In this document: in pieces, positions 1 to 24,040 of the stretch
How positions within the stretch are numbered: position 1 is the first letter of the stretch
Layout: every line of letters starts with the position of its first letter
Virus record (IMG/VR): IMGVR_UViG_2740892439_000001
Coordinates: 1-24,040 of that record
DNA length: 24,040 nucleotides
Source of the DNA: a virus
Taxonomy: Duplodnaviria; Heunggongvirae; Uroviricota; Caudoviricetes
Direction: 5' to 3' (one strand)
Notes under the pieces: generated by a model
What the model was told of the DNA's origin: nothing
Databases searched by the model: none
The model's input: only the letters and a program-made list of their open reading frames with translations
Made by a program: the position numbers and the translations under genes

Positions 1-22
1 CCACGCAATGCCTGAAATAACA

Positions 23-45
23 GCCTCGCACTAGCGGGGCTTTTT
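23..45 (+). terminator. Intrinsic terminator of an upstream plus-strand gene (outside window)
   Basis: Stem gcctcgc / gcggggc (7 bp, one G-U wobble), loop acta, followed by ttttt at 41-45. Confidence 0.5.
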
Positions 46-8416: not shown

Positions 8417-8431
8417 AGAAGGAAACTTGAA

Positions 8432-8821: not shown

Positions 8822-9194
8822 TTTTCGGCGCGACTTTCCACAGTTTGCTGACCCTGCCAAATATCCCGAAGCACAAATCCAGTTTCGTCTGAATCTGGCT
8901 GATGTGCTGCTGAGCGAAAACGTCACCGGCAAAGAGTTGTTTCCGTACTTTGTCGAGTTGTTCGTGGCTCACTACATGACGCTCTGGGCGGCAGATAGCC
9001 GGGCAATGCTCGTCGGCGGCCCGGGTGGCTCAACCAATGGTGTTCAGTCCTCCAAGTCCGTTGACAAGGTAAGCGTCAGCTATGACACCAGCGCGACGCT
9101 AAACCCTGACGCAGGCTTCTGGAATAACACCCGATATGGCGCTGAATTTTATCAGCTGATCACGATGTTCGGTGCGGGCGGTCGCCAGCTATGA
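8787..9194 (+). CDS. Head-tail connector-like protein (DUF4054-like)
   Basis: Likely start at ATG 8787 ([33 protein letters not shown]...); the track ORF begins upstream at 8751. Confidence 0.55.
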
Positions 9195-10154: not shown

Positions 10155-10692
10155 CACCAGTACAGAGCGCGGATGGTTAATACCAACCAGTGGCGATCTG
10201 GATTATGACGAAGCGCTCGACAGGCTGTTAAGCCAGTGGATGCGTAACGTTTCCGGTCTGTCTGCCGGGATGGTTCGCCCGCGCTGGCAGAAAGAGCAGC
10301 CGCCACTGCTACCGGCTGAAACGAACTGGTGTGCGTTTGGGGTTATCGGATGGTCAGGTGATGACAGTCCGGCATTCACCAGACAGACCGATGATGGCTC
10401 TAAGCTCTGGCGGCATGAAACGATTGAGTGTATGGCTTCGTTTTATGGTCCGGCGGGGATGGTGTATGCGTCCCGGTTTCGTGACGGTATATCTGTACCG
10501 CAGAACAATGCAGCACTGAATGCGCTGGGGCTGTCTCTTGGCGATTACACAGGTCTGACCCCCTTCCCTGAACTTATTAATCAGCAATGGGTCCGCCGCT
10601 ACGATATGACGGTGCGCCTGCGCCGGAAGGTTGTGCGCGAGTACGGTATTAAATCGCTGGTGGAAGCACCAGTCATCTTTTTCGGAGATTAA
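10126..10692 (+). CDS. Tail-associated structural protein (hypothetical)
   Basis: 188 aa ORF immediately upstream of the sheath gene; start uncertain. Confidence 0.45.
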   Translation: MMGELRLSNNTSTERGWLIPTSGDLDYDEALDRLLSQWMRNVSGLSAGMVRPRWQKEQPPLLPAETNWCAFGVIGWSGDDSPAFTRQTDDGSKLWRHETIECMASFYGPAGMVYASRFRDGISVPQNNAALNALGLSLGDYTGLTPFPELINQQWVRRYDMTVRLRRKVVREYGIKSLVEAPVIFFGD

Positions 10693-10695
10693 GCT

Positions 10696-11841
10696 ATGGC
10701 ACAGGGCTTGCCTGTATCAAACGTTGTTAATGTTGATGTGATCATGTCGCCGCGTGCAGCATCAGGGCGAAATTTTGGTGCATTACTCATTCTCGGCCCG
10801 TCCACAATCATTCCGGTAAGTGAGCGCATTCGCCGTTATTCTGCCGCGGAAGATATTGGAAAAGATTTTGGCGTGGAATCACCAGAATATAAGGCTGCGC
10901 AGGTGTTTTTCTCACAATCACCGAAACCTCAGGAGGTTTTTGTTGGTCGTTGGGTGAAAACGAAGGGTGACAGCGAACAGGCCACGCCTGAGACGCTGGA
11001 GCAGGCTGTGAATGCCATGCTCGATTATACTTCATGGTATGGGCTGGGGATTGCAGACGATGAAGATATTCCGGATGCAGACTGGCTGAAAGTGGCTGCG
11101 GCGATCGAATCCTCTTCTGTAAGCCGTATTCTGGCGATTACGACAAGCGATGAGAAATGCCTGCAGACTGCATCCAGCGATGATTTGGCATCAAAACTGA
11201 AAACCGCCGGATATTCACGCAGTTTTATTCAGTATTCATCGGGTAATAAATACGCTGCGTTATCTGCATTTGGCCGGGTATTCACGGTTAATTTCAATGG
11301 CAGTAATACCGCGATTACGCTCAAGTTTAAGCAGGAGCCGGGTGTCGGGTATGAAACACTGACAGTCAGCCAGGCATCGGCACTTGATGCAAAAAACTGC
11401 AATGTATTCGTGTACTACCAGAATGATACGGCTATCCTCCAGCAGGGAGTGATGGCTAACGGCGATTTCTTTGATGAACGCCACGGCCTGGACTGGTTAC
11501 AGAATTATGTGCAGACCAACCTCTATAACCTGCTTTATACCAGCACCACGAAAGTTCCCCAGACTGAAGCCGGTATTACCCGACTGTTATCAAATGTTGA
11601 AAAATCACTGGATCAGGCCGTTCAGAATGGACTGATTGCTCCGGGCGTATGGAACGGGGGCGACCTTGGTCAGTTGTCATCAGGTGACACACTGCCCAAA
11701 GGTTATTACGTATACGCCCAGCCGCTGGATGAACAGGCACAATCAGAACGTGAAGCCCGTAAGGCTCCGGTGATTCAGGCTGCAATAAAACTTGCAGGCG
11801 CGGTTCATTACGCTGACGTACAGATTAACGTTGTTCGCTAA
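10696..11841 (+). CDS. Tail sheath protein (DUF3383-like)
   Basis: 381 aa; placed directly before the tube and chaperone genes as in contractile tails. Confidence 0.65.
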
Positions 11842-11851
11842 GGGGAAGTGA

Positions 11852-12292
11852 ATGTCTACCTATTCTTTTATGGATGTCACTGCGACGCTGACCGGCCCGA
11901 CCGGTTCGATTGACCTCGGGTACGGTTCTGCAAGTTCTGAAGAGGGGATTGTGGTTGCGATGGGCGGTCCTAAAAACACCATGACCATCGGTGCTGATGG
12001 TGAAGTGATGCACAGCCTCCATGCAGATAAAAGCGGGACGATTACCGTTAACCTTCTGAAGACATCACCGACAAATAAAAAATTGTCGCTGGCGTATAAC
12101 GCACAGAGCCAGTCTTCTGCCACATGGGGGAATAACGTTATCGTGATCCGCAACAAGGTCAGCGGCGACATCATCACGGCACGCAGTGTTGCGTTCCAGA
12201 AACAACCGGATAATGCCAACGCTAAAACCGGTAATACGATGCCGTGGGTGTTTGACTGCGGCAAGATTGACCAGGTTCTCGGGGAGTTTTAA
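11852..12292 (+). CDS. Tail tube protein (DUF3277-like)
   Basis: 146 aa between sheath and chaperone. Confidence 0.6.
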   Translation: MSTYSFMDVTATLTGPTGSIDLGYGSASSEEGIVVAMGGPKNTMTIGADGEVMHSLHADKSGTITVNLLKTSPTNKKLSLAYNAQSQSSATWGNNVIVIRNKVSGDIITARSVAFQKQPDNANAKTGNTMPWVFDCGKIDQVLGEF

Positions 12293-12295
12293 TAC

Positions 12296-12748
12296 ATGGA
12301 ATTCGAAATCAAAGGCGTGAAATATCGCGTGGCAAAACTCAGCGTTTTTGACCAGCTGAAAGTGACCCGCAAACTTCTGCCGGTACTGGCGGGAATGATG
12401 TCAGATTTCGGGAGCATTCGCTCCCGTTTGCCTGCTGACGGCAAAATCGACACCGTGAAATTCGAGCAGTTAAAACCGGTGTTTGAAACCATGCTCCCGC
12501 GTATCGCTGAGGAACTGTCTTCCCTGACCGAAGATGACACCAGTGCGATTATTCATCCCTGTCTTGCGGTGGTATCGCGGCGTCATATGGACGGATGGGT
12601 TCCGGTATTTACCCAGGGCGAACTGATGTTTGATGATATTGACTTGCTGGTCATGCTGCATCTGGTGGCGCGGGTGGTCGCCGATTCGCTGGGAAATTTT
12701 TTGCCTACACCCCTTACCAGCACGACGCAGAGCCTGCAACAGGGCTGA
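12296..12748 (+). CDS. Tail assembly chaperone (gpG-like, zero-frame product)
   Basis: 150 aa; immediately upstream of the tape measure gene; contains the slippery site near its 3' end. Confidence 0.7.
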   Translation: MEFEIKGVKYRVAKLSVFDQLKVTRKLLPVLAGMMSDFGSIRSRLPADGKIDTVKFEQLKPVFETMLPRIAEELSSLTEDDTSAIIHPCLAVVSRRHMDGWVPVFTQGELMFDDIDLLVMLHLVARVVADSLGNFLPTPLTSTTQSLQQG

Positions 12749-12936
12749 CGTTTAACAGCCTGCCGGACGGGCTGTCTTACCTTCTCAATCCGGTTGACGC
12801 CGGGTTAATTCCTTATACAGCACTTAAAGATGGCTCTGTCGATTTGTACGACATTGCTCTCTTGAATGACCATCTGGCGGTAAAAGCGGATAACCAGCGG
12901 CGCATTGAGAAATGGAGAGAGGATAATGAACGCTGA
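12296..12936 (+). CDS. Tail assembly chaperone frameshift product (gpGT-like), made by -1 ribosomal frameshift at 12691-12703
   Basis: After a -1 slip, the frame is open for 79 codons from 12697 to the tga at 12934-12936, exactly filling the apparent 178-nt gap before the tape measure ATG at 12926. Confidence 0.65.
12691..12703 (+). promoter_or_regulatory. Programmed -1 frameshift slippery sequence G_GGA_AAT followed by T_TTT_TTG
   Basis: In the chaperone frame the codons are ctG GGA AAT TTT TTG; both overlapping heptamers fit the X_XXY_YYZ pattern. Confidence 0.6.
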
Positions 12937-14911
12937 AACTATTAAAGATTTCCTCGTCTCGCTTGGCTTCAGTGTGGATGATGCTGGAGCAAAAAAATTC
13001 GGTTCTGTCCTCGCCGGTACAACTGCAAATGTCATCAAAATGGGACTGGCCGTTGAAGGAGCTGCACTGTCCGTGGTGGCCTTTACGGCTAAGATTGCCT
13101 CCGGCCTGGATAATCTTTACTGGGCGTCACAGCGCACTGGCGCGACAGTACAGGGAATTCAGTCTATTGGCTATGCGGTTTCGCAGGTTGGCGGCAGCGT
13201 GGACGCTGCGCGATCTTCTCTGGAAAGTCTCTCCCGGTTTATTCGTAACAATCCCGGGGCAGAGGGATTTCTGAATCGCCTGGGGGTACAGACACGGGAT
13301 GCCAGCGGCAACATGCGCGACATGGCCGCTATCTTTACGGGTGTCGGACAGAAGCTCAGCAGCATGCCGTATTACCGGGCTAACCAGTATGCGCAGATGC
13401 TGGGCATTGACGAAAATACCTCATGCGATGCGCCGGGGTGTGGGTGATTTCTCCGGGCAGTACAGCGCAATGGCGAAAGCTATCGGCTTCAATGCTGACG
13501 AGGCGGCCAGAAGCTCCAACAAATTCATGACCTCCCTGCGCGAGTTCGGCGCGATGGCAGGCATGGCCCGTGACAAAATCGGCTCTAATCTTGCTGGTGG
13601 TCTGGCGGGTTCGCTGGACACACTGCGCCGCCACATCCTCGATAACTTCCCGCGCATCGAGCAGACCCTGACGAAAGCCATAAAAGGCATTCTGGCGCTC
13701 GGAGACATCATCGGGCGGCTGTTCTTCAGGCTAATTGAGGGAACATCCAGCCTTATCACCTGGTGGCAATCGCTGGATAAGCAAACGCGGGAGCTCATCT
13801 CGCTGTTTGGCGCGCTGACGATTGCGCTGCGCATTCTGAACAGTACGTTCTGGATGTCGCCGATTGGCCTCATTACCGCGCTGGCGGCGGGGATTGCCCT
13901 TCTGTGGGAGGACTATCAGACCTGGAAGGAAGGCGGCGACAGCCTGATTGACTGGGGCAAGTGGAAGCCGGAGGTCGATGCCGCGCTGAAGATGGTTCGT
14001 GGCCTGAAAGGGTCTGTTAATGAACTGGCGAAAGCGCTGGCGAAACTGCTCAATATTGACCCCAAATCATGGTCCCTGAAGTGGGATTTCAGCAACTTCA
14101 TCGACCAGATGGGCGAATTCAGCAAAATGCTGAACATGATCGCCGACCTGCTCAACGCTATCAAAGATGGCCGCTGGGCTGATGCCGTCAGCATCGGCAA
14201 ACAGATACTTAATCAGGCAGCGAAAATCCGTCAGCGATGCCGATGGTTACAGACAGCGCTAACAGTACTGCCGACTGGATTAAAGAGCACTGGGGATTCG
14301 ATCCCCGCAGTGTGGGCCGGACGGTACGCGGCTGGTTTGGTGATGATGAGCCGGAACAATATGCACAGGCTACGAAACGAGGAGAACGGAATAACAATCC
14401 GGGAAACCTTAATTTTGCTGGTCAGGCAGGGGCTTCTCTTGAACGCCCGGGCGGGCGATTTGCCAGATTTGAAACTGCTTTTGATGGATTACGGGCTCTT
14501 GCTCGTCAGTTAATGCTGTACGCCGGACGGGGAATAAACAGTGTGGAGAAAATTATCTCTACCTGGGCACCTGCGTCTGATAATAACAACACAACTGCGT
14601 ATATCAGGGCTGTATCGCAACGACTGGGAGTGGATCCCCGGGCTGCCCTGAATATGAGCGATCCGCAAACCATGTCAGCATTGATGAGCAGCATTATCCA
14701 GCATGAAAATGGAAGAAATATCTATTCTCGAGAGCTGATTAATAAGGCTGCCGTGGCGGGAATTAGTGGCAAAATGACAGAGGTTAACCAGCAAAATACT
14801 TACCACATTTACGGTGGCGGAGATCCGCACGCTGTCGGTAATGAGGTTGCACGTCGGCAACAGTCTGCAAATGCTCAGGTCATGCGAAGTAATCAGGTGA
14901 GGGTGGGTTAG
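12926..14911 (+). CDS. Tail tape measure protein, split over three frames by two apparent 1-nt indels (near 13433-13438 and 14213-14237)
   Basis: ORFs 12926-13447 (frame 2), about 13437-14513 (frame 0) and 14237-14911 (frame 2) are contiguous. The middle part has hydrophobic segments and a coiled-coil-like feel typical of tape measure proteins. The junctions give continuous protein if one g is removed from ccgggg and one base is added near 14230. Confidence 0.75.
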
Positions 14912-15498
14912 TGGATATTCTCTCTACACTTTTTCATCAGCAGAGCAGAAAAATAGGAATGATTGTTCCCAGTGTTGTTATTTCAGAGAAGCATACAGAT
15001 ATGCTTGAAATAACAGAGCATCCGGTAGAGGTCGGGGCCGCTGTCGCTGATCATGCCTATAAAAAACCGTCAGAAGTGGTGATGGAGGTTGGTTTCGCCG
15101 GTGGCGGCGCATTGCTGGATTTTGCCAGTAATCTGACGGCTACCAGCCTGCTCGGCCTGAGTCCTCAGCAGACGTATCAGGAGCTACTGGATCTGCAGGA
15201 AAGCCGTATCCCCTTCGATGTGGTAACCGGTAAACGACTGTACAGCAACATGTTGATCCGGGCGCTGGAAGTGACGACGGACAAGACAACCGAAAACGTC
15301 CTGTCCGCCGTCCTCACCCTGAGGGAGGTCCTTATCTCCCGGACACAGCAGATTACCGTCGCGGATAAAACCAACATGAAGGAAGGGGCCAGCACGTCGG
15401 CGGTACAGAACAGCGGCAACAAAACCACAAAGCCTCCAGATACTTCACTGCTGAAAAGCATCACGGGTAACGTGGCGTCATTACTGGGGGGCGGCTAA
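14911..15498 (+). CDS. Tail/baseplate assembly protein (hypothetical)
   Basis: 195 aa; GTG start overlaps the tape measure stop (TAGTG). Confidence 0.5.
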   Translation: MDILSTLFHQQSRKIGMIVPSVVISEKHTDMLEITEHPVEVGAAVADHAYKKPSEVVMEVGFAGGGALLDFASNLTATSLLGLSPQQTYQELLDLQESRIPFDVVTGKRLYSNMLIRALEVTTDKTTENVLSAVLTLREVLISRTQQITVADKTNMKEGASTSAVQNSGNKTTKPPDTSLLKSITGNVASLLGGG

Positions 15499-15800
15499 TG
15501 ACAATTCAGGAAATTCCGCTGACAGCGGACAACCAGCAGTTCAGCATCGTCTTAGGTGGTGTTACCTGGCGGATTAGCATCATATGGCGCGATCTTTACT
15601 GGATTATGGACCTGCAGAACGACAGAGGGGAGCCGGTAATCTCCGGTATTCCTCTCGTCACTGGCGCTGATCTGCTGGCGCAGTACGCCTGTATGGGGCT
15701 TGGTTTTAAGCTGGTGGTGGTCTGCGATGACAACACACAGGATTATCCCTCGAAAACTGATCTGGGTGGCCGCAGTCATTTACTGGTATCAACGGAGTAA
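15498..15800 (+). CDS. Small tail/baseplate protein (hypothetical)
   Basis: 100 aa; TAATG coupling. Confidence 0.5.
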   Translation: MTIQEIPLTADNQQFSIVLGGVTWRISIIWRDLYWIMDLQNDRGEPVISGIPLVTGADLLAQYACMGLGFKLVVVCDDNTQDYPSKTDLGGRSHLLVSTE

Positions 15801-15802
15801 GC

Positions 15803-16867
15803 ATGTCACAGAACTGGATGAGACATTTCGAGCTGCAGCTTGTGGACGGGAACGGTCAGGGAATTGAGCTAAGTGATTTCAAAGTCACCTTTACGATCGA
15901 CTGGTTCAACATCAGCAGCGCGTCCCGGGTAGGGACTATCAAAATTTATAACCTCTCGGCAGATACTGTGAACCGAATCACCGGGAAGGAATTTTCGAAA
16001 GTGCGGCTGATTGCCGGTTACGACGGTATCGCGCCGGAGGTGGCGGCAAGCGACGTCGGGACCGTGCGCGAAGTCGACGCGGCAGATGTGGGCCAGAGTG
16101 ATGGCCGCAACTACGGGCTGATTTTCAGCGGAGAAATTCGCTACTCGGTCACAGGAAAAGACAGCCCTATTGATTCCTATGTCCTGATTCAGGCAGCAGA
16201 TACGGATCTGGCATTTGCCACCAGTATAACCTCACAGACGCTGGCTGCCGGTTACACGGTCGCTGATGTGAACCGTGCGCTGATGAAAGACTTCGAAGCC
16301 AAAGGCGCGACCGAAGGCCTGACGCCTGAAATGCCTGCTACTGTATTCCCCCGGGGGCGGGTGCTCTTTGGCATGACGCGGCATCTTATGGATAACGTAG
16401 CCGGGCAATGTGGCGCAACATGGCAATTCGTGGACGGTCAACGCCAGATGGTGGCGAATAACGAATATGTTCATGAAGCGATTGTGCTCAACAGCGCCAC
16501 CGGGCTTATCGGCATGCCGCAGCAGACTATCGGCAACGGCGTAAACGTCCGCGCGCTTATTAATCCGAACATCCGGGTTAATGGGCTCATTCAACTGGAT
16601 CAGGCTTCCGTATATCGCACCGCGTTGTCGAACAACGATATTGCGATGGCTGGTGGGCAGATCACCGACCAGAACACGGACGGAAATATCACGCTAAGCG
16701 GCACCACAGCACAACCTGCCAGCATCGCAACGGATGGCGTTTATATTGTGCGCGGGATTATGTACACTGGCGATACAAGGGGCCAGGCGTGGTACATGGA
16801 TATGATGTGCGAAGCGCGTGGCGCGGCGGATCTTCAAAGTCAAGGAGCAATGAATCGGTGGGGATAA
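15803..16867 (+). CDS. Baseplate hub-like protein
   Basis: 354 aa; position between the tape-measure-distal genes and the central spike. Confidence 0.5.
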   Translation: MSQNWMRHFELQLVDGNGQGIELSDFKVTFTIDWFNISSASRVGTIKIYNLSADTVNRITGKEFSKVRLIAGYDGIAPEVAASDVGTVREVDAADVGQSDGRNYGLIFSGEIRYSVTGKDSPIDSYVLIQAADTDLAFATSITSQTLAAGYTVADVNRALMKDFEAKGATEGLTPEMPATVFPRGRVLFGMTRHLMDNVAGQCGATWQFVDGQRQMVANNEYVHEAIVLNSATGLIGMPQQTIGNGVNVRALINPNIRVNGLIQLDQASVYRTALSNNDIAMAGGQITDQNTDGNITLSGTTAQPASIATDGVYIVRGIMYTGDTRGQAWYMDMMCEARGAADLQSQGAMNRWG

Positions 16868-16869
16868 GA

Positions 16870-17400
16870 TTGAATAAGAAAGCCATTTTTATTGCAATAA
16901 GTTTACTTGTTCCGATGTCGGGATTAGCCGCTCCTGGGAAGTATGAAAAAATGGCTGTTGATTTAATGGATCAGCAAAAGTTTACGCAGTGGCAACATTA
17001 CGCCTCTGCTACTCCTTTTTTCGCTATGAATGGTCGCAGATTCGCCATGACCATTGATGATTTCGCGGATATAGTCAGCAACTCCTTTCAAGAATGCGAA
17101 GATCTGGATGCCTACACCAATCGGAAAGGAACTACGGATGATTGTAAGTCCTATGTTTACAAAGGCATAAAGGAGTGGGTAAACCTCTCTCAAGATAAGT
17201 CTGTTAGCGATACAGCATGGAAAATGGGCCAGCGCTATGCTTCAACACACGTAATCCTATTGCCCATAAAAACGCATGGGATTTCAATGGGATGGCGGCC
17301 GGTATTCGCGTTGCTAAATCTCAAGGTTATTAAGTCATGGATGCGCCGAAAATCATCGGATCTTTCCCGTGTAAAAAAGTGGCTGGGCGATGATTTTTGA
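16870..17400 (+). CDS. Accessory secreted protein with N-terminal signal peptide (function unknown)
   Basis: TTG start with a ggtgggga SD 6 nt upstream; N-terminus (M)NKKAIFIAISLLVPMSGLAAPG is a typical Sec signal; mature part has two Cys; about 33 percent GC in the first 60 nt versus about 70 percent in sampled structural-gene sequence. Confidence 0.55.
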   Translation: MNKKAIFIAISLLVPMSGLAAPGKYEKMAVDLMDQQKFTQWQHYASATPFFAMNGRRFAMTIDDFADIVSNSFQECEDLDAYTNRKGTTDDCKSYVYKGIKEWVNLSQDKSVSDTAWKMGQRYASTHVILLPIKTHGISMGWRPVFALLNLKVIKSWMRRKSSDLSRVKKWLGDDF

Positions 17401-17558
17401 CGTCCATAATATTATGGATGAACTGTTGCCAATTGCGCTAATTTTAACAAAATAATACTGGTTAACGCATTTTTTGAACCATCTGTACACAGTAGTTGTC
17501 TATACTTTACCTTAAAGGTAAACTCTGCGCTCCACTGATGTTCACTATGGGAGGGGAT
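17401..17558 (+). promoter_or_regulatory. AT-rich intergenic region with promoter-like hexamers and two palindromes (17404-17417 and 17506-17522)
   Basis: ccataatattatgg is a perfect 14-bp palindrome; tttacctt-a-aaggtaaa has perfect 8-bp arms. Candidate sigma70 elements: ttgtct (17496-17501), 17-nt spacer, taaact (17519-17524). gggagggg SD precedes the ATG at 17559. Confidence 0.4.
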
Positions 17559-17798
17559 ATGAGGGAAATCGTTAATCGTTACTTAGCCGCTGCCGGTAGT
17601 GTTATGGACATTATGCCGACTACAGATTACTGGCAATATGCTGCTTCTGGATCTGATTGTCGGGCAATAAGAAGTGATGTTAAAGTCATTGCAAGTGACA
17701 TGAACAGAGTTATCAGGTATGAGTTCAAAACCCCGCAAGCAGGCGGCCGTTCTCAAAAAGCGTCAGGAAAACAAAGCGTCGCAAAAAGCCGTTCCTGA
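17559..17798 (+). CDS. Small hypothetical protein (accessory cassette)
   Basis: ATG at 17559 with a strong SD; about 80 aa; the last ~27 codons overlap the next gene and look low-complexity, so the true 3' end is uncertain. Confidence 0.4.
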   Translation: MREIVNRYLAAAGSVMDIMPTTDYWQYAASGSDCRAIRSDVKVIASDMNRVIRYEFKTPQAGGRSQKASGKQSVAKSRS

Positions 17799-18291
17799 TT
17801 CGGATGGTATCGACGAAAATATTGATTCCTCGGAATATGATGAGTCTCAGGAAGTAGTGGAAAAGCTGTCTGCAGTTGCCAACCTTGATCCTGAGCTAAA
17901 ATCGAAGTTAACACCTGAACTTCTTGAGAGAGTTTCTAAGAATCCGAAGGTTATTGCCATGTTTCAGCAGGAGTCTTTTCAGGGACCACTCCCACCTCCT
18001 GCTATGCTCTTACAATATAATCAAATATTACCCGGCGGCGCTGAGAGAATTTTCAGGCTAACCGAAAAAGAGCAAGAGCATAGGCATAAGACGCAAAGCG
18101 ATGCATTACTTGGTGCGGTTTCACGCGACAAACGTGGGCAATGGATGGGATTTTGCATTGCAATGGTAGTGCTTATAATGGCTGCGTTTTTTGCTAATCG
18201 CGGTAACACTTGGTTCGCAGGTACTCTTGCTACTTTAGATCTCGTAGGATTAACTACAGTGTTTGTTTATGGTAGGAAGAAACCTAAATAA
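17719..18291 (+). CDS. DUF2335-like membrane protein (charged N-terminal domain plus two C-terminal transmembrane helices)
   Basis: 190 aa; motif GPLPPPAMLLQYNQILPGGAERIFRLTEKEQEHRH recalled as the DUF2335 signature; hydrophobic stretches WMGFCIAMVVLIMAAFFA and WFAGTLATLDLVGLTTVFVY; followed by a terminator. Confidence 0.6.
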   Translation: MSSKPRKQAAVLKKRQENKASQKAVPDSDGIDENIDSSEYDESQEVVEKLSAVANLDPELKSKLTPELLERVSKNPKVIAMFQQESFQGPLPPPAMLLQYNQILPGGAERIFRLTEKEQEHRHKTQSDALLGAVSRDKRGQWMGFCIAMVVLIMAAFFANRGNTWFAGTLATLDLVGLTTVFVYGRKKPK

Positions 18292-18306
18292 TCCATACAT
18301 CCTTTC

Positions 18307-18329
18307 AAACCCGCTTCGGCGGGTTTTTT
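18307..18329 (+). terminator. Strong rho-independent terminator
   Basis: aaacccgc-ttcg-gcgggttt stem-loop followed by a T-run, 16 nt after the stop of the DUF2335-like gene. Confidence 0.75.
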
Positions 18330-18348
18330 GCTTTCTGGAGCCTACTAA

Positions 18349-19103
18349 ATGGCAGTATCTGACCAGACCCGCAGCGGCGACCTTGCCGAAACATTCAAAT
18401 CTGAACGGGAAACAACAAAGAACCAGATCCGAGTCGCTTTGCCTGGCATCGTCCAGTCATTCGATCCTGACGCTGTGACGGCGGTTGTGCAGCTTCTATC
18501 CGTTCGGTTGAAACGGATAACGACGGCAATCGCGTTACCAAAAATTACCCGCTGCTGGTGGATGTGCCGGTGGTATTCCCGCGCGGCGGAGGCTGTACGT
18601 TGACTTTTCCGGTAAAAGCTGGGGATGAGTGTCTTGTCGTTTTTGCCGATCGTTGTATTGATTTCTGGTGGCAGAGCGGCGGGATACAGGAGACGATTGA
18701 TAACAGAATGCATGATTTATCGGATGCGTTCTGTATCGTCGGTCCGCAGTCTCTGGCGCAGAAAATCAGCGGAATCAGCACCAGCGCCGCGCAACTGCGT
18801 ACTGATGATGGCGCTGCGTTTGTGGAAGTGGCCGCAGGCCATAACATCACGGTTAAAACCCCCGGCGCGCTGACGGCGACAGCAGAAGGAGGAACCACGA
18901 TCACATCACCCACCATCACGCTAAACGGCAACGTGACAATAAACGGGAATCTCTCTCAGGGGATGGGCGAAAGCGGCGGCACCGCGACGATGCTTGGCCC
19001 TGTCACGGTGACTAACGATGTAAAAGCTGGTGGTAAGAGCCTGATGACGCACACGCACGGCGGAGTACAGACCGGCGGCGGTAACACAGGAGCGCCTAAC
19101 TGA
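18349..19103 (+). CDS. Baseplate central spike protein (gp138 / Mu gp45 / P2 gpV-like), interrupted by an apparent 1-nt indel near 18493-18497
   Basis: N-terminal ...IRVALPGIVQSFDPDAVTAVVQ (frame 1) and YPLLVDVPVVFPRGGGCTLTFPVKAGDECLVVFADRCIDFWW (frame 0) together form one OB-fold spike domain; Gly/Thr-rich beta-helix-like C-terminus; ggag SD before the ATG at 18349. Confidence 0.7.
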
Positions 19104-19456
19104 TGCGATACAGACGTGAAGACGCCGATGGCGATTACACCTTTGGCAGCGGTGATGACACCTGGCTGATTAACTCACCGGAGGCCGTGGCGCAGGCGGT
19201 AAAAACGCGATTCGAATTGTGGTATGGGCAATGGTTTCTTGACACCACTGAGGGGACTCCGTGGATCCAGTCCGTACTCGGTAAGCAGAAGCCGGAAACC
19301 TACAACCTGGCGATCCGTAAGCGCATCCTCGAAACGCGGGGCGTTAAATCAATCCTCTCTTTCAATACGACGGTGGATACCACGACCCGACGTGTCATGT
19401 TTTCCGCTGAAATCGACACTCTCTATGGAATAACGACTGTTACATCGGAGGCGTAA
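19103..19456 (+). CDS. Baseplate protein (gp25 / W-like)
   Basis: 117 aa directly after the spike, TGATG coupling. Confidence 0.5.
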   Translation: MRYRREDADGDYTFGSGDDTWLINSPEAVAQAVKTRFELWYGQWFLDTTEGTPWIQSVLGKQKPETYNLAIRKRILETRGVKSILSFNTTVDTTTRRVMFSAEIDTLYGITTVTSEA

Positions 19457-20652
19457 TGGCTCTGAACCTTGATTCTCTCGGTTTATCTGCAAAGGTAACC
19501 GCGGAGGGGATCAGTGCGCCTGATTATCAGACGATACTCAGCACCCTGATTAGCTATTTTCAGCAGATTTATGGCAGTGATGCCTACCTCGAACCGGACA
19601 GCAAAGACGGCCAGATGGTCGCTCTGGTGGCTCTGGCCATTCACGATGCCAACAACACGGCCATTTCTGTTTACCGGTCATTTTCTCCGTCGACGGCGCT
19701 GGACGATGCATTAACCAGTAACGTCAAAATTAACGGCATCACTCGCCGTGCTGCGACAAACTCTACGGTCGATGAGCTGATTGAAGGCGAAGCCGGAACG
19801 TTAATCACAAACGGGTCTGTGAAAGATGCCAACGGTATCATCTGGAATCTTCCTGCTCAGGTGACAATTGGTATTGATGGGACGGTTATTGCTACAGCGA
19901 CGTGTTCTGTTGCTGGTGCTGTGGCCGCCCCTGCCGGGTCAGTCAATAAGATAAACACCCCGACACGTGGTTGGGTATCAGTAACTAACCCGCAAGCGGC
20001 TACGGTAGGCGTTGCTGCCGAAACAAATGCTGAATTGCGTGTCCGGCAATCACAGAGCGTTGCTTTACCGTCTCTGACGCCGTTTGAGGCGGTAGATGGC
20101 GCGATAGCAAATATCAGCGGCGTAACGCGACACAAGCTGTATGAGAACGATACAGATACCACTGATGCAAATGGCCTGCCTCCGCACTCAATCGCCGCCA
20201 TTGTAGAAGGTGGTGATGCGACGGTCATTGCAAACAGCATTCGTGGTGTGAAAGGGCAGGGCGTAACACCCTACGGTAGTACGGTGATTGTTGTGCCTGA
20301 TAAGTACGGAAACCCTCACTCGGTAGGTTTTTCAAGGCCGGTCGATGTACCCATTTACGTCAAAATCACTATCGAACCTCTTACGGGCTACACATCCCAG
20401 GTTGGCGAAGAGATAAAGGCGGCTGTATCTGCCTACATTAACTCACTGGCAATCGGCGCCAGCGTTCTTCTCAGTCGCGTTTACTCACCGGCTAACCTTG
20501 GTGTTGTCAGTGGTGGTAATGCCAGGTATTACGACATTACCGAGTTGCTGATCGGGACGTCTGCCGGTGGCGTAGCTGCGGCAAACGTGGATATTGCCTT
20601 TGACCAGTCAGCATCCTGTGCCGTCAGCAATATTAATCTGGTGGTCTCATGA
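19456..20652 (+). CDS. Baseplate J-like protein
   Basis: 398 aa; position after the gp25-like gene; size and order match J / gp47-like baseplate wedge proteins. Confidence 0.6.
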   Translation: MALNLDSLGLSAKVTAEGISAPDYQTILSTLISYFQQIYGSDAYLEPDSKDGQMVALVALAIHDANNTAISVYRSFSPSTALDDALTSNVKINGITRRAATNSTVDELIEGEAGTLITNGSVKDANGIIWNLPAQVTIGIDGTVIATATCSVAGAVAAPAGSVNKINTPTRGWVSVTNPQAATVGVAAETNAELRVRQSQSVALPSLTPFEAVDGAIANISGVTRHKLYENDTDTTDANGLPPHSIAAIVEGGDATVIANSIRGVKGQGVTPYGSTVIVVPDKYGNPHSVGFSRPVDVPIYVKITIEPLTGYTSQVGEEIKAAVSAYINSLAIGASVLLSRVYSPANLGVVSGGNARYYDITELLIGTSAGGVAAANVDIAFDQSASCAVSNINLVVS

Positions 20653-21422
20653 GCAGATACACTGACCGCATAACAAACTACCACGCCGGTAAACCAAAGT
20701 TCTTTGCACACGTTGATCTGTCCACCAGGCCACTGAGCGATGTTTCCGATGCAATGTCACGGCTAATACCCGATTTTGATATTGATACCGCCATTGGCGT
20801 GCAGCTTGACGTTGTAGGCGAATGGGTTGGTCGTTCCCGTCGCGTGGCAACACCGGTAACCGGGATTTATTTTTCGTGGGACACCGAACGGGTTGGCTGG
20901 GATCAGGGGGTCTGGCAGGGACCATATGACCCAAACGACGGTTTTATCGATCTAAGCGATGAAATATATCGGCTAATGCTGAAGGTGAAAGTGGCAATAA
21001 ACAACTGGGATGGTCAGAACGATTCGCTGCCTTCAATTCTTGATGCCGCCCTTGCCGGGTCCGGGATCCGCATGGCTATTGTCGACAACCAGGATATGTC
21101 GATTTCCATCTGGATACTCGGTGACCCATCGGTAGCCCTAAGTGAAATAGACCGGTTAATTCTGGATAGCGCCGTCAATAAAGGCCCCTTTATCGCATTA
21201 CCGGCAGGTTACGTGCCTTCGCGCTATGACATTAACCCGATTGACCAGGTTAACAGCGAGCTATGGTGGGCGATTCGGAACGGTTATATGACGGTTAAAG
21301 CCGCAGGGGTTCGTGTCCGTGAAATAGAGACCGTCAGTGATGGTTATCAGTTTTTTGGCTTCGATATCGAAAATGACTATATCGCTGGCTTCGACCGCGG
21401 GTCATGGGGAGAGAGATTTTAA
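20649..21422 (+). CDS. Baseplate/tail protein (DUF2612-like)
   Basis: 257 aa; ATGA coupling; position between the J-like and tail fiber genes. Confidence 0.5.
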   Translation: MSRYTDRITNYHAGKPKFFAHVDLSTRPLSDVSDAMSRLIPDFDIDTAIGVQLDVVGEWVGRSRRVATPVTGIYFSWDTERVGWDQGVWQGPYDPNDGFIDLSDEIYRLMLKVKVAINNWDGQNDSLPSILDAALAGSGIRMAIVDNQDMSISIWILGDPSVALSEIDRLILDSAVNKGPFIALPAGYVPSRYDINPIDQVNSELWWAIRNGYMTVKAAGVRVREIETVSDGYQFFGFDIENDYIAGFDRGSWGERF

Positions 21423-22291
21423 TGGCGACTAACGATTTTAAACCCTTCGCTACTGGTAGCGGGGCAAACGTATTATCACAGGCTGATTATGAAGCGCTAT
21501 CTGTACTGGCATCTGGTTTTCTTTCCGGCAAAGCCTCGTCAGCACAAGTAAATAAAGCACTACGGCAATCCTCTACAATTGCTGCCGTCCTTGCACAATT
21601 CATGGCGGATAGCACAGGAAGCGATGTCCTGGATAATGGGAACATTGCCACGTTACTAAATATTCTCAAGTCCGCACTTAATAATCAGGCAGAAGGACGC
21701 CTGCTCCGCATTCAGGTTTTTACCGCTAGCGGAGCATGGGTAAAAACTGCTGGCACTAAAAAAGTCAGAATTAAAGCATGGGGTGCAGGCGGTGGGGGTA
21801 AGGGAACAGACGTCGCAGGGACTGGTGCACCTAGTGGGGCGGGTGGTGCATATGTTGAGGGATTATATGACGTAAGCACCATTAATGGGGCGAATATCGT
21901 TATTGGCGCTGGTGGCGCGGCAGTTGCAGCAGGGAATGCAGGGGATGGCGGTGATGGGGGAGACACTACCATTACCGCGTTGGGTATCTCTGCTGGCGGT
22001 GGTAAGGGGGGAAAGTCTGCTGGTAATTCTGCTGGCGGAATTCCGGGAGCTCCATCTGTTGGGACAATATTCTCAGTGGCTGGTCAGGGAGGACAGGGAG
22101 GATCAGGTGTAAGCCTGGGTGGTGTAGGTGGCGCATCGCACAGTAGTTATGGTGGCCTTCCACACGTTAGTTCATCCGGTGATGATGGATTTTTCCCTGG
22201 TGGAGGTGGTGCTGGCGCATCATATGACTCAATCGCCAGGGCATCAGGGAAGGGCGCTAACGGCTATGTCATCATTGAGGAGTACGCATAA
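21422..22291 (+). CDS. Tail fiber protein with glycine-rich C-terminal domain
   Basis: Start at ATG 21422 (MATNDFKPFATGSGANVLSQADYEAL is a typical tail fiber N-terminus); residues ~120-280 are mostly Gly/Ala/Ser. Confidence 0.65.
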   Translation: MATNDFKPFATGSGANVLSQADYEALSVLASGFLSGKASSAQVNKALRQSSTIAAVLAQFMADSTGSDVLDNGNIATLLNILKSALNNQAEGRLLRIQVFTASGAWVKTAGTKKVRIKAWGAGGGGKGTDVAGTGAPSGAGGAYVEGLYDVSTINGANIVIGAGGAAVAAGNAGDGGDGGDTTITALGISAGGGKGGKSAGNSAGGIPGAPSVGTIFSVAGQGGQGGSGVSLGGVGGASHSSYGGLPHVSSSGDDGFFPGGGGAGASYDSIARASGKGANGYVIIEEYA

Positions 22292-22488
22292 TGGCAGGTA
22301 ATTACGCAGTCATTGAAAGTGGAATAGTTAAAAACATCATAATTGCGGAAAGCGGTTATGAATATGATGGTGCTGAACTTATCGAATATCCTGAAAGTGT
22401 ATTTTGCCAGCCTGGGATGTTTTATAACAAGGCAGACGGGCTATTTTACGATGATAAAGAATATTCAAAAATAAATAGCAAGAATTAA
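22291..22488 (+). CDS. Small hypothetical protein downstream of the tail fiber (possible fiber assembly/accessory factor)
   Basis: 65 aa, TAATG coupling, AT-rich. Confidence 0.4.
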   Translation: MAGNYAVIESGIVKNIIIAESGYEYDGAELIEYPESVFCQPGMFYNKADGLFYDDKEYSKINSKN

Positions 22489-22512
22489 GTCACTAAATTA
22501 CCAGAAAGCAAA

Positions 22513-22534
22513 CTGACCTTATGGTCGGTTTTTT
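22513..22534 (+). terminator. Putative intrinsic terminator
   Basis: ctgacc-ttat-ggtcgg stem (6 bp with one G-U) followed by ttttttatt. Confidence 0.45.
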
Positions 22535-22546
22535 ATTGGGGCGACC

Positions 22547-24040
22547 ATGAGTGAATACGATACCGGCAATCCTGTGCCGTCTGCATCCATGCCTGATGCA
22601 TGGGATAATATGCAGTCTATTGACAAGTTCGTTAATAGCAGTGATGAAACCATTACCACACGCACAGGCAAACAGTTAGATACTTTGCATGGCGTTAATG
22701 TTAAAGCGGACAACCAGCTAACGCAGCAGCAAGCAGATTTTGAAACCTCGCAAGAAGAAAGGGATGCTGTAGTTGAGGAAACCAGGCAGAACCTGATCCC
22801 TCTCAGCCGGCAGTACATGACGCTGGCGGCGGCACAGGCAGATATTGCTAATATACCTGTTAATTCGTTCACATATGTGCGGGATCAGTCTGGTGATGCT
22901 CTGGCGTTAGAGTACAAAAACGTAGAGGGCACTTTAACGGCTACTGGTCGTAAAATGCCATCACAGCAATCTGTAGATGATGTTTATGCTTTCATAGCTG
23001 ATAACGATATATTGTCTCCTGGTAGAAATATTTATAATTATCGTAAATCAATTGATGGCAAATACCTTAATGAACAGGGTGTTATAAGTGACAACCCGAT
23101 ATATTTCCTTTCTGATTACATGATGGTAAGTCCTGCAATGCAGGTGGCATCAAATTACAACTTGAGATTTGTACACTTTTTCGATGAACAGAATAACCTA
23201 CTAAGCTATTTAACTTTTGTCACGCAGTTTACAACACCATCAAACGCTCGTTATATACGTATCACTGGAGGAATTGACTCCAAAACCCTTTTGCAAATAG
23301 AGGCAGGGCCATTAAAAACCGCGTTTAAATATTATCGTAAATATATTTCTGAAACTCTCCCTGATGGAACTCCAGTTTCAGCAAAAAAAATAATGGGAGT
23401 AACTCCTGGGAAAAACAAGTTTAACAAGGCAACAGCAACGCAGGGATACGCAATTAATGAAAATGGAGAGCTAATCGTTGCCTCAACTTACTTTGTCTCA
23501 GACTACATTAAAGTCACTGCCGGCGGAACATTGAGGCCTTCCCAGCCAGCGCGATATATTAACTTTTATGATGCCAATAAAACATGGCTGTCGTCTCTCC
23601 AGAATCAAAATGGGGCGTTCGCAGTGCCTTCCTCTGCGGCATATCTTCGCATTTCAGTGCTGCTTGCGAGAATCGATTACTTCCAGATTGAGGTTGGAAG
23701 TAAGATGACAGCCTACGAGCCTTACTCACTCACGGCAGCAACTTCGCTTGACGGTGATGGGTTAAAGTATCCGGTGAATGAGCCAGATATCTATAGTATT
23801 GGCCTGTTCAATGCTGGAAAGAATATTTATAACCCCTATACACTGACCGCTGGTTATATCGATGAGAATGGTTTTGTTGTTCCGGGTGGAACGACATATA
23901 AATTTTCTGACTATCTTCCAGTTAAAGCATCAACGGGGTATGTAGGAAATAAAAGCATGCGCTTCATAAACATTTATGATGCGGATAAAGCGTTTATTTC
24001 GACTCTTACCAGCACGACAACATTCACAACCCCGTCTAAT
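22547..24040 (+). CDS. Distal tail fiber / receptor-binding-like protein, 3'-truncated by the window end, with tandem ~130-aa repeats
   Basis: Hand translation from ATG 22547 is open to 24040 (498 codons); absent from the ORF track, which appears to list only ORFs with an in-window stop. About 37 percent GC in a sampled 60-nt stretch. Repeats start near 23057, 23444 and 23849. Confidence 0.6.
   Translation, partial: MSEYDTGNPVPSASMPDAWDNMQSIDKFVNSSDETITTRTGKQLDTLHGVNVKADNQLTQQQADFETSQEERDAVVEETRQNLIPLSRQYMTLAAAQADIANIPVNSFTYVRDQSGDALALEYKNVEGTLTATGRKMPSQQSVDDVYAFIADNDILSPGRNIYNYRKSIDGKYLNEQGVISDNPIYFLSDYMMVSPAMQVASNYNLRFVHFFDEQNNLLSYLTFVTQFTTPSNARYIRITGGIDSKTLLQIEAGPLKTAFKYYRKYISETLPDGTPVSAKKIMGVTPGKNKFNKATATQGYAINENGELIVASTYFVSDYIKVTAGGTLRPSQPARYINFYDANKTWLSSLQNQNGAFAVPSSAAYLRISVLLARIDYFQIEVGSKMTAYEPYSLTAATSLDGDGLKYPVNEPDIYSIGLFNAGKNIYNPYTLTAGYIDENGFVVPGGTTYKFSDYLPVKASTGYVGNKSMRFINIYDADKAFISTLTSTTTFTTPSN

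What the first reader, a model, noticed from the sequence alone, without database searches (positions are those of the whole stretch)
18307..18329. Strong intrinsic terminator in the middle of the late structural operon
A near-ideal terminator (8-bp GC-rich stem, ttcg loop, T-run) sits 20 nt upstream of the essential spike gene. A late transcript from terS must read through it to express spike, baseplate and fibre genes. This fits the cassette being a recent insertion that brought its own terminator, and implies leaky termination, antitermination, or a promoter in 18330-18348.
Basis: seen in the sequence. Interest (0 to 1): 0.45.

Follow-up and report, generated by a model that had tools for sequence, protein, structure and literature searches.

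The report
Conserved terminator bordering a prophage cargo slot
The hairpin is a real transcription terminator, but it is the old, shared right-hand border of an accessory-gene ("moron") slot in a lambda-like prophage whose late transcription is expected to read through terminators, so it is ordinary rather than paradoxical.

Summary
The terminator is real: AAACCCGC-UUCG-GCGGGUUU plus a U-run at 18307-18329, 15 nt after the DUF2335 stop codon and 19 nt before the spike ATG. It is the strongest perfect-stem terminator-like site on the + strand of the window.

This cassette did not bring it in recently. A hairpin plus T-run sits at this position in 78 of 79 relatives found by spike protein. It borders at least 23 unrelated cargo types. 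Klebsiella phage Mulock has it with a compensated stem. Bordetella and Acinetobacter outgroups have hub and spike contiguous, with no cargo and no terminator. It is therefore the retained 3' border of an old moron slot (cargo GC 40-46 % against 54-58 %).

The read-through problem has a textbook answer. Every relative sharing this late operon is lambdoid, with a Pfam-confirmed Q antiterminator and tR'-like terminators before the lysis genes. The window has two more strong + strand terminators (22-41 and 22510). No promoter fits in 18330-18348.

The spike frame is broken in the window by a 1-nt homopolymer deletion, probably a sequencing error.

Verdict: a new member of a known kind, of low interest. 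Termination and read-through are inferred, not measured.

The parts
15803..16867 (+). Baseplate hub gene, the left conserved flank of the slot
   Evidence: phrog_196 baseplate hub, 1.5e-88; weak Pfam E217_GP41 match; 83 % aa identity to the SEN34 hub
16870..17400 (+). Cargo gene 1: small protein with an N-terminal signal-peptide-like segment and a TTG start 3 nt after the hub stop. This position is semi-conserved, with only 3 sequence types across relatives
   Evidence: Sequence read; ORF; annotated at the equivalent position in KSC64 and CFS3246; clustering of the first 250 nt after the hub gives 3 clusters of 82, 11 and 7; no Pfam, PHROG or PADLOC match
17401..17558 (+). AT-rich non-coding gap (about 60 % AT) with a sigma-70-like site TTGCCA-16-CAAAAT at 17426-17453; candidate cargo promoter region, not demonstrated
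   Evidence: Across cargo types, promoter-like hits in such gaps number 6 against 3.4 expected, which is inconclusive
17559..17798 (+). Small ORF with a strong ribosome-binding site (GGGAGGGGATATG). It overlaps the annotated DUF2335 start by 80 nt in another frame
   Evidence: phrog_26284, 1.1e-11; sequence
17719..18291 (+). DUF2335 membrane-protein gene, the cargo gene whose transcript the hairpin would end
   Evidence: Pfam PF10097, 1.8e-18; phrog_3996, category 'moron, auxiliary metabolic gene and host takeover', 1.1e-46; RefSeq annotation in KSC64
18307..18326 (+). Terminator stem-loop AAACCCGC-UUCG-GCGGGUUU
   Evidence: Homologous hairpin in 78 of 79 spike-selected loci. The stem is conserved and the loop hypervariable
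18324..18336 (+). U-rich tract TTTTTTGCTTTCT. It is conserved on the + strand, whereas the A-run on the 5' side is not, so the element is directional
18337..18340 (+). GGAG ribosome-binding site of the spike gene, 8 nt before the ATG
   Evidence: invariant in alignment A3
18349..19103 (+). Central spike gene (N-terminal spike domain plus GpV apex motif), the right conserved flank. The frame is broken at about 18492 by a 1-nt deletion
   Evidence: Pfam PF18352 and PF18946; alignment with four intact relatives; tblastn frames; indel context
22..41 (+). Another strong + strand terminator-like hairpin (AGCCTCGC-ACTA-GCGGGGCT plus TTTTTAATG), just after the lysis cassette and inside the same late transcription unit
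   Evidence: dG -13.6 kcal/mol
22510..22537 (+). Third strong + strand terminator (AAACTGACC-TTAT-GGTCGGTTT plus TTTTATT), followed 10 nt later by a long tail-fibre-like ORF (22547 to the window end)
   Evidence: dG -11.4 kcal/mol

Best explanation
The element is a Rho-independent (intrinsic) terminator that forms the fixed right-hand border of a moron slot between the baseplate hub and central spike genes of a SEN34-like (Brunovirus-like) lambdoid myophage. An ancestral insertion in the enterobacterial branch of this phage group placed accessory DNA and a terminator between two genes that are contiguous in outgroups. Since then the cargo upstream of the hairpin has been exchanged many times, while the hairpin, T-run and spike ribosome-binding site were retained.

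Inferred function: the terminator ends and 3'-stabilises transcripts that start in or upstream of the cargo when RNA polymerase is not antiterminated, as in the lysogen. That keeps such transcription out of the spike, baseplate and fibre genes.

Inferred read-through: during lytic growth the late operon is transcribed from a pR'-type promoter by Q-modified, terminator-resistant RNA polymerase. That polymerase passes this terminator as it passes the tR'-like terminator and the other two strong terminators in the window.

Shown here: sequence and structure, position, conservation, cargo turnover, the outgroup state, the GC contrast, and the presence of Q and tR'-like sites in relatives. Inferred: termination activity, cargo promoter activity, and Q-dependent read-through in this particular phage.
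For: Anatomy:
- G-C core stem, UUCG loop and U-tract lie 15 nt after a co-oriented stop codon.
- It is the strongest perfect-stem + strand terminator-like site in the window.

Conservation:
- 78 of 79 loci found by spike protein alone have a hairpin plus T-run directly 5' of the spike ribosome-binding site.
- At least 15 loop sequences accompany an almost invariant stem.
- C-to-U changes keep U-G pairs.
- L193 has a different stem at the same place, and Mulock has CCCAC/GUGGG in place of CCCGC/GCGGG, a G-C to A-U swap with the same UUCG loop.
- The T-run is conserved but the 5' A-run is not, so the element is directional.

Slot:
- 23 cargo clusters abut the hairpin, and the commonest hairpin type borders 17 of them.
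- Homology between the window and CFS3246 (flanks 99.5 % identical) resumes exactly at the 5' foot of the stem.
- In about 19 of 23 clusters the adjacent gene is co-oriented and stops 10-25 nt before the stem.
- The one hairpin-less allele (L171) has its adjacent gene on the other strand.

Insertion:
- Bordetella IFTN9 and Acinetobacter Ab105-1phi have hub and spike overlapping by 8 nt or 2 nt apart, with no terminator.
- No terminator-bearing allele lacks cargo (minimum hub-spike distance 394 nt).
- Cargo GC is 0.40-0.46 against 0.54-0.58 in the flanks.

Read-through:
- SEN34, CFS3246, N921 and Ecol_AZ147 are lambdoid, with Q upstream of the holin, lysozyme and Rz genes.
- N921 shares window 1-844 and Ecol_AZ147 shares window 794-2000.
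- Q is confirmed by Pfam: PF03589 at 1e-57 and 1e-50, PF06530 at 4e-25.
- Strong terminators lie between Q and holin.
- Two further strong + strand terminators sit in the window's late unit, one directly before a tail-fibre-like gene.

Literature:
- Morons are defined by extra DNA, a deviant GC content, and their own promoter and terminator (PMC3594210).
Against: - No transcript data exist here, so termination efficiency and read-through are untested.
- The Q gene of the window's own prophage lies outside the window, and its exact left-end junction was not found in the collections. Q is therefore inferred from mosaic relatives.
- An independent cargo promoter is not demonstrated: promoter-like matches in cargo-upstream gaps number 6 against 3.4 expected.
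- Several short alleles are packed from hub to hairpin with no gap of 70 nt or more. In those, the only obvious polymerase reaching the hairpin is the late one.
- Two cargo clusters whose adjacent gene is on the minus strand still keep the hairpin.
- Formal covariation is weak because the stem hardly varies in this closely related set.
Confidence: 0.68

Rival explanations
1. Dosage attenuator. The terminator is kept because it partly terminates even late, Q-modified transcription. That would lower expression of the spike, baseplate wedge and fibre genes relative to the head, sheath and tube genes upstream.
For: There is a precedent. The P22 ant moron 5' of the tailspike gene is thought to affect how often late-promoter polymerases reach the tailspike gene (PMC2629481). 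Short alleles have no room for a cargo promoter, so late transcripts are the obvious substrate. The hairpin persists with minus-strand cargo in clusters 8 and 21.
Against: Outgroups with the same tail module have hub and spike contiguous, with no terminator, so tail assembly does not require a step-down here. Hub and spike are neighbouring low-copy baseplate parts, which makes this an odd place for a dosage boundary (inference). The terminator is never seen without cargo. Q-modified polymerase is largely terminator-resistant (established knowledge of lambda, 82 and 21 Q).
Confidence: 0.14
2. RNA stability or processing element. The stem-loop mainly acts as a 3' protective hairpin for the upstream messenger, or after cleavage as a 5' protective hairpin for the spike messenger, rather than stopping polymerase.
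For: The stem is selected and the loop is free. A second stable hairpin without a + strand T-run follows the major capsid gene at 8400-8417, which shows that this phage uses non-terminator hairpins after highly expressed genes.
Against: The T-run of 5-6 T immediately 3' of the stem is conserved in nearly all alleles, including the two with unrelated stems. A pure stability hairpin would not need it. The two roles are not exclusive, since terminator hairpins also stabilise 3' ends.
Confidence: 0.08
3. Passive hitch-hiker or recombination joint. The hairpin has no present function. It is simply the first conserved bases of the spike-side homology arm used when cargo is swapped by homologous recombination, and it is preserved by linkage to the spike gene.
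For: Homology breaks exactly at the 5' foot of the stem. Hairpin variants are only weakly associated with cargo or spike alleles (adjusted mutual information 0.25 and 0.08). The formal covariation signal is weak.
Against: Loop positions vary freely while both arms stay complementary. Two lineages (L193 and Mulock) carry different stem sequences that still form a hairpin plus T-run at the same spot. Neutral sequence would not keep pairing.
Confidence: 0.07
4. Stop and restart. Late transcription really ends at 18329, and the spike, baseplate and fibre genes are expressed from a separate promoter in or overlapping 18330-18348. This was one of the first reader's options.
For: None found beyond the logical need for downstream expression.
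Against: Only 19 nt separate the T-run from the ATG, and they contain the ribosome-binding site. No promoter-like match lies there. The nearest + strand match (18152-18179) is upstream of the terminator. The same puzzle recurs at 22510 before the tail-fibre-like gene, which favours one general solution (Q) over several hidden promoters.
Confidence: 0.02

Closest known systems
Morons of lambdoid phages (HK97 gene 15 in the tail operon; lambda lom and bor), as defined by Juhala et al. 2000 and reviewed in PMC3594210
   Same: Extra DNA lies between two conserved late genes, has a deviant GC content, and is closed by a factor-independent terminator inside a Q-dependent late operon. The cargo is a small membrane or secreted protein of the kind often involved in exclusion.
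   Different: An independent promoter and expression from the repressed prophage are not shown here. The terminator is not private to one moron but is shared by at least 23 different cargoes. The first cargo gene starts 3 nt after the hub stop, as if co-translated with the late operon.
[quoted passage not shown]
   Same: A single fixed slot in the morphogenetic operon sits just upstream of a host-contacting tail gene. Its content turns over far faster than the flanks: ten types in sixteen genomes there, at least 23 clusters in 113 loci here. The authors proposed one ancestral insertion later remodelled, and an effect on late-promoter read-through into the downstream tail gene.
   Different: The phage morphotype and flanking genes differ (podovirus genes 16 and 9 versus myovirus hub and spike). 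There is no antirepressor, Mnt or Arc circuitry here. Here a single conserved terminator marks the border.
Anti-phage hotspots of P2-like prophages and P4-like satellites (Rousset et al. 2022, PMC9122126)
   Same: A fixed position is flanked by conserved phage genes, with highly variable toxin-like or defence-like cargo (YafO toxin, HEPN-like pairs, PycTM-like) of low GC.
   Different: The phage family and location differ. A defence function for the cargo is not tested here, and PADLOC gave only weak matches. I did not check how the P2 hotspots are bordered.
Lambda tR' and Q-dependent late antitermination
   Same: Strong intrinsic terminators lie in the path of late transcription and are overridden by Q-loaded RNA polymerase. 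Relatives show Q, then a promoter-like site, a strong terminator and holin.
   Different: tR' sits next to the promoter and is part of the switch. The 18307 terminator is about 20 kb downstream and plays no part in the decision; it is merely tolerated.

Membership tests
Intrinsic (Rho-independent) terminator | G+C-rich stem-loop | tested here: met
   8-bp stem with a core of 5 G-C pairs and a UUCG loop, -12.2 kcal/mol
Intrinsic (Rho-independent) terminator | U-rich tract immediately 3' of the stem on the transcribed strand | tested here: met
   TTTTTTGCTTTCT; T5-T6 is conserved in nearly all alleles, and the opposite-strand tract is not conserved
Intrinsic (Rho-independent) terminator | Placed shortly after the stop codon of a co-oriented gene | tested here: met
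   15 nt after the DUF2335 stop (18291). The same holds in about 19 of 23 cargo clusters
Intrinsic (Rho-independent) terminator | Releases transcripts made by unmodified RNA polymerase (3' ends at the U-tract) | not testable with these tools
   Needs Term-seq, a reporter or an in vitro assay
Moron (Juhala/Hendrix definition, PMC3594210) | Extra DNA between two genes that are adjacent in related phages | tested here: met
   Hub and spike are contiguous in Bordetella IFTN9 and Acinetobacter Ab105-1phi, against 1481 nt between them in the window
Moron (Juhala/Hendrix definition, PMC3594210) | Base composition differs from the flanking genes | tested here: met
   GC 0.40-0.46 against 0.54-0.58
Moron (Juhala/Hendrix definition, PMC3594210) | Own terminator | tested here: met
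   Yes, with the qualification that the terminator is shared by all cargo types of the slot
Moron (Juhala/Hendrix definition, PMC3594210) | Own promoter | tested here: inconclusive
   AT-rich 158-nt gap with TTGCCA-16-CAAAAT at 17426-17453. Across cargo types there are 6 hits against 3.4 expected. Short alleles have no gap
Moron (Juhala/Hendrix definition, PMC3594210) | Expressed from the repressed prophage | not testable with these tools
   Needs lysogen RNA-seq
Q-dependent lambdoid late operon | Q-family antiterminator gene upstream of the lysis and structural genes | tested here: inconclusive
   Met in all four relatives examined, including the two that share the window's left-end modules. 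The window itself starts downstream of the lysis genes, and its exact configuration was not found elsewhere
Q-dependent lambdoid late operon | Promoter-proximal terminator (tR'-like) between Q and the first late gene | tested here: met
   Met in relatives only. N921 and Ecol_AZ147 have TTGACT-17-TAAATT followed by a 13-bp-stem terminator. SEN34 has two strong terminators
Q-dependent lambdoid late operon | Late genes on one strand in a single unit following the lysis cassette | tested here: met
   terS to the fibre genes all lie on the + strand. Window 1-844 matches the segment just after the 'lysis protein' gene

The most novel reading that the evidence does not exclude
The hairpin is a lineage-fixed, actively selected insulator. 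It turns the hub-spike junction of SEN34-like lambdoid myophages into a reusable plug-in slot for toxin or anti-phage cargo. That would make it an undescribed defence hotspot, and its recurrent two-gene modules (a protein of about 250 aa plus a HEPN-like protein of about 130 aa) and other cargoes would be new defence systems. Any cargo dropped in is automatically given a 3' end and kept from driving tail genes in the lysogen.
Probability: 0.25. Interest if true: 0.45.

Novelty: new member of a known kind. Interest (0 to 1): 0.2.

Why it matters
For the question asked, it matters little. A strong terminator inside a lambdoid late operon is expected, because morons carry terminators and Q-modified polymerase ignores them.

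Two modest points are worth keeping:

- The terminator is a stable landmark for a fast-turning cargo slot. Its conserved 3' half plus the spike ribosome-binding site, GGGTTTTTTGCTTTYTGGAGCCTAC, retrieved more than 119 viral contigs in one scan. It can be used to harvest accessory or defence-candidate genes from this phage group.
- The locus shows a terminator outliving the cargo it arrived with. This supports the 'one ancestral insertion, later remodelled' view proposed for the P22 ant moron.

Tried and rejected
- Rfam at gathering thresholds over the whole window gave no match.
- Formal covariation on 24 distinct alleles was not informative: 93.8 % of cells paired, but only one both-sided change. 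MAFFT also put the two divergent stems (L193 and Mulock) out of register.
- The sigma-70 promoter test on cargo-upstream gaps gave 0 hits in a first pass that covered only alleles with the hub inside a 2.3-kb frame and had ORF-calling gaps. A second pass gave 6 against 3.4 expected. Neither is significant.
- A restart promoter in 18330-18348 is rejected for lack of space and of any match.
- I looked for the window's own prophage to see its Q gene, using a pattern across the mosaic junction at 746-880. There were 0 hits in genome contigs (twice; the first attempt may have had a miscounted N-run) and 0 in viral contigs.
- PADLOC on cargo proteins gave only weak HEPN_IX and PycTM matches. Pfam HEPN was below the gathering score. 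No defence claim is made.
- The 'cassette-specific terminator' idea was tested by association: hairpin type against cargo cluster gave adjusted mutual information 0.25, and the main type is spread over 17 clusters. Rejected.
- A bidirectional terminator is rejected: the minus-strand tail is TTTGAAAGG, and the 5' A-run is not conserved.
- I first suspected a decaying prophage because of frame breaks in terL, the tape-measure gene and the spike gene. The indel contexts point to homopolymer sequencing errors instead.
- Literature searches found no description of this hub-spike slot or of DUF2335 in phage biology.

Full report
OBSERVATION

The sequence at 18307-18336 reads AAACCCGC-TTCG-GCGGGTTT-TTTGCTTTCT. 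It forms an 8-pair stem (5 G-C, 3 A-U) with a UUCG loop, followed by a T-rich tract. It starts 15 nt after the stop codon of a co-oriented gene (ORF 17719-18291). It ends 19 nt before the ATG at 18349, with GGAG at 18337-18340.

The hairpin alone folds at -12.2 kcal/mol. The 66-nt context gives -15 kcal/mol, z = -2.4. The consensus scan lists it second among 22 terminator-like hits in 8000-24040, a count only mildly above shuffles (14.9 +/- 3.7), so the scan alone proves little. Among perfect-stem hairpins with a T-rich tail on the + strand of the whole window it is the best by a wide margin. No Rfam family matches anywhere in the window.

GENES AROUND IT

- Upstream lies the tail and baseplate module: a Dit-like protein (14911-15498), a baseplate plug (15498-15800) and the baseplate hub (15803-16867).
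- Downstream lie the central spike (spike N-terminal domain plus GpV apex motif, 18349-19103), a wedge protein, a Baseplate_J protein, a DUF2612 protein and fibre genes.
- Between hub and spike lie 1481 nt of cargo:
  - a small signal-peptide-like protein whose TTG start is 3 nt after the hub stop (16870-17400);
  - an AT-rich 158-nt gap;
  - a small ORF (17559-17798, phrog_26284);
  - a DUF2335 membrane protein (17719-18291; PHROG category 'moron, auxiliary metabolic gene and host takeover').
- Cargo GC is 0.40-0.46, against 0.54-0.58 on both sides.

WHOSE TERMINATOR IS IT?

The region matches prophages in 350 of 5426 complete E. coli genomes. It also matches Salmonella phage SEN34 (Brunovirus), several induced E. 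coli phages and Yersinia phage YP3. Usually only the flanks match.

In four annotated relatives with different cargo, the hairpin, T-run and ribosome-binding site directly precede the spike ATG. These were KSC64 with the same DUF2335 cargo, CFS3246 with a YafO toxin pair, vB_EcoM-606R2 and SEN34.

A pattern scan with the conserved 3' half retrieved more than 119 viral contigs. That sample is biased, so I drew a second one using spike protein homology only:

- 78 of 79 loci have a hairpin plus T-run at the same place.
- One of the 78 (L193) has an unrelated stem, AGGCUGCCU...GGGCGGCCU.
- The one exception (L171) has its adjacent cargo gene on the opposite strand.

Across 113 non-redundant loci:

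- There are 23 clusters of unrelated sequence abutting the hairpin.
- The commonest hairpin type (CCCGCC-ACCC-GGCGGG) borders 17 of them.
- The window's UUCG type occurs with three clusters.
- Hairpin type is only weakly associated with cargo (adjusted mutual information 0.25) and hardly at all with the spike allele (0.08).
- The first 250 nt after the hub fall into only three types.
- Loops vary freely (at least 15 sequences) while both arms stay complementary. The few arm changes are C-to-U, which keeps U-G pairs.
- The T-run is conserved but the A-run on the 5' side is not, so the element is directional.

Klebsiella phage Mulock, a more distant relative, has GCCCAC-UUCG-GUGGGU plus U6, then GGAG and ATG at the same junction. 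This is the window-type hairpin with one G-C to A-U exchange. Yersinia YP3 has only a weaker hairpin about 50 nt upstream.

Formal covariation statistics are weak, because the stem barely varies in this closely related set and the divergent stems misalign. The case for selection rests on four things: the contrast between stem and loop, the replacement stems, the conserved T-run, and the constant position.

ANCESTRAL STATE

Two temperate phages of about 41 kb have a spike 42-45 % identical: Bordetella vB_BaM-IFTN9 and Acinetobacter Ab105-1phi. In them the hub and spike genes overlap by 8 nt or are separated by 2 nt, with no cargo and no terminator. Conversely, no allele with the terminator lacks cargo; the smallest hub-spike distance is 394 nt, which is the secreted gene 1 alone.

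Cargo plus terminator is therefore an insertion in the enterobacterial branch. The terminator has since been kept while the cargo turned over.

HOW LATE TRANSCRIPTION GETS PAST

SEN34 is lambdoid. It has CI/Cro/CII-like genes, O/P-like replication genes, the Nin region and a Q-like protein, then holin, endolysin and spanin, then terS and the structural genes on one strand. The closest E. coli relative of the window's structural module (CFS3246; 83 % coverage at 96.7 % identity) has N, a LexA-family repressor, CII, the Nin genes, Q and the lysis genes.

The window itself begins just after a lysis gene. Window 1-844 is 99.6 % identical to the segment after 'lysis protein' in E. coli N921, and window 794-2000 is 99.6 % identical to the terS region of Ecol_AZ147. 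Both genomes carry the identical antitermination protein WP_001235461.1, followed by holin, lysozyme and lysis protein.

Pfam confirms the Q families: PF03589 at 1.3e-57 and 1.1e-50, and PF06530 at 4.3e-25. Between Q and holin these relatives have a promoter-like TTGACT-17-TAAATT and a 13-bp-stem terminator, or in SEN34 two strong terminators. That is the pR'/tR' layout.

It is established that Q-loaded RNA polymerase becomes terminator-resistant and transcribes the whole lambdoid late operon (PMC2629481 states this for the class).

The window also holds two more strong + strand terminators in the same unit. One is at 22-41, after the lysis cassette. The other is at 22510-22537, followed 10 nt later by a long tail-fibre-like ORF. 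One general mechanism explains all three sites.

A restart promoter in 18330-18348 does not fit. Those 19 nt hold the rest of the T-rich tail and the ribosome-binding site, and no promoter-like match is there.

WHAT THE TERMINATOR IS FOR

The best reading is the classical moron terminator (PMC3594210). It ends and stabilises transcripts made by ordinary polymerase in the lysogen, and it keeps them out of the tail genes.

Support:
- It is tied to the presence of cargo.
- It follows a co-oriented cargo gene in about 19 of 23 clusters.
- The lone hairpin-less allele has antisense cargo.

Weaknesses:
- A cargo promoter is not shown (6 promoter-like hits against 3.4 expected in the gaps).
- Some short alleles have no gap at all.
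- Two antisense-cargo clusters keep the hairpin.

Rivals:
- A late-operon dosage attenuator has a P22 precedent, but the outgroups show that tail assembly needs no step-down here.
- A pure RNA-stability hairpin would not need the conserved T-run.
- A functionless recombination joint would not keep pairing through loop turnover and stem replacement.

COMPARISON AND NOVELTY

This is a moron-type terminator in a Q-dependent lambdoid late operon. [quoted passage not shown] The cargo spectrum resembles the P2/P4 hotspots (PMC9122126), but no defence function is tested here. It comprises:
- a YafO toxin pair (Pfam 3.9e-17);
- recurrent pairs of about 250 aa and 130 aa with a sub-threshold HEPN signal;
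- a weak PycTM-like match;
- DUF2335.

I found no paper describing this particular slot. It is a new member of a known kind.

SIDE FINDING

The window's spike frame is split (18349-18603 and 18558-19103) by a 1-nt deletion at about 18492: CAGCCTTCT in relatives, CAGCTTCT here. The tape-measure gene and terL are also frame-broken.

The clean indels in the tape-measure and spike genes are single-base losses in short G/C runs, in sequence otherwise 97-99.7 % identical to intact relatives. That is the signature of sequencing or assembly error rather than decay. The terL indels (about 3349 and 3555) rest on a reference only 80 % identical and do not show that context, so they are less certain.

VERDICT

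The apparent paradox dissolves once the lambdoid, Q-dependent context is recognised. Interest is low (0.2). Termination activity and Q-dependent read-through remain inferences that Term-seq and reporter assays would settle.

Noticed in passing
window about 3349, 3555 (terL); about 13422, 14215 (tape measure); about 18492 (spike): Frame breaks occur in three essential late genes. The clean ones, in the tape-measure and spike genes, are single-base deletions in short G/C homopolymers, in sequence otherwise 97-99.7 % identical to intact relatives. That suggests sequencing or assembly errors rather than a decaying prophage. The terL indels rest on a reference only 80 % identical and are less certain.
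   Followed up: partly
window 22510-22537 and 22547-24040: A strong + strand terminator (AAACTGACC-TTAT-GGTCGGTTT plus T-run) follows the fibre-assembly-like gene. Ten nt later a long ORF of at least 498 codons begins and runs off the window. Its N-terminus matches tail-fibre and neck PHROGs. This is a second 'terminator directly before a structural gene' in the same operon.
   Followed up: partly
window 22-41: A strong + strand terminator-like hairpin (AGCCTCGC-ACTA-GCGGGGCT plus TTTTTAATG, -13.6 kcal/mol) lies just after the end of the lysis cassette, again inside the late transcription unit.
   Followed up: no
window 8400-8417: A stable hairpin CGGCCCC-GAAA-GGGGCCA lies 10 nt after the major capsid gene stop. 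It has no T-run on the + strand (terminator-like only on the minus strand). It may be an mRNA-stabilising or processing hairpin after the most highly expressed gene.
   Followed up: no
window 18152-18179: The best sigma-70-like match of the 16-kb scan (TTTGCA-16-TATAAT, 10 of 12) lies inside the 3' part of the DUF2335 gene, about 150 nt upstream of the terminator. If active it would give a short RNA of about 140 nt sharing the terminator. It may equally be a by-product of AT-rich transmembrane codons.
   Followed up: no
window 17559-17798 and 17719-18291: A small ORF with a strong ribosome-binding site and a PHROG match (phrog_26284) overlaps the annotated DUF2335 start by 80 nt in a different frame. 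RefSeq annotates only DUF2335 in KSC64. The true starts are uncertain.
   Followed up: no
window 893-1389, minus strand: Two small minus-strand ORFs lie between the lysis cassette and terS. They correspond to YodC-family and DUF6953-family genes annotated in Ecol_AZ147. This is a second, antisense accessory insertion in the late region.
   Followed up: no
L014, L007, L060, L006, L023, L044 (cargo 0.4-1.3 kb upstream of the spike ATG): A two-gene cargo recurs in the same slot in other phages: a protein of about 230-260 aa with no family match, followed by a protein of about 125-142 aa with the motif AISRAYY.M.H...RN.ADY. The HEPN signal is weak (Pfam E 0.002, below threshold; PADLOC HEPN_IX E 0.003-0.009). 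These are candidate toxin or defence pairs.
   Followed up: partly
L171 3249-4000; L041 and L177: L171 is the only spike-selected allele without the hairpin, and its adjacent cargo gene (a 73-aa zinc-ribbon-like protein) is on the minus strand. Two other clusters with minus-strand adjacent genes (represented by L041 and L177) do keep the hairpin.
   Followed up: partly
first gene after the hub in most relatives (e.g. L013, L010, L041); window 16870-17400 is a different type: A conserved family of secreted proteins of about 102-116 aa (motif GLMPAKDGNNYGFE...LNVQLLQNSMDAPKIIGSFPCKK) directly follows the hub gene in most alleles, with no family match. It is the only cargo in the minimal alleles, so it may be the original passenger of the slot.
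   Followed up: no
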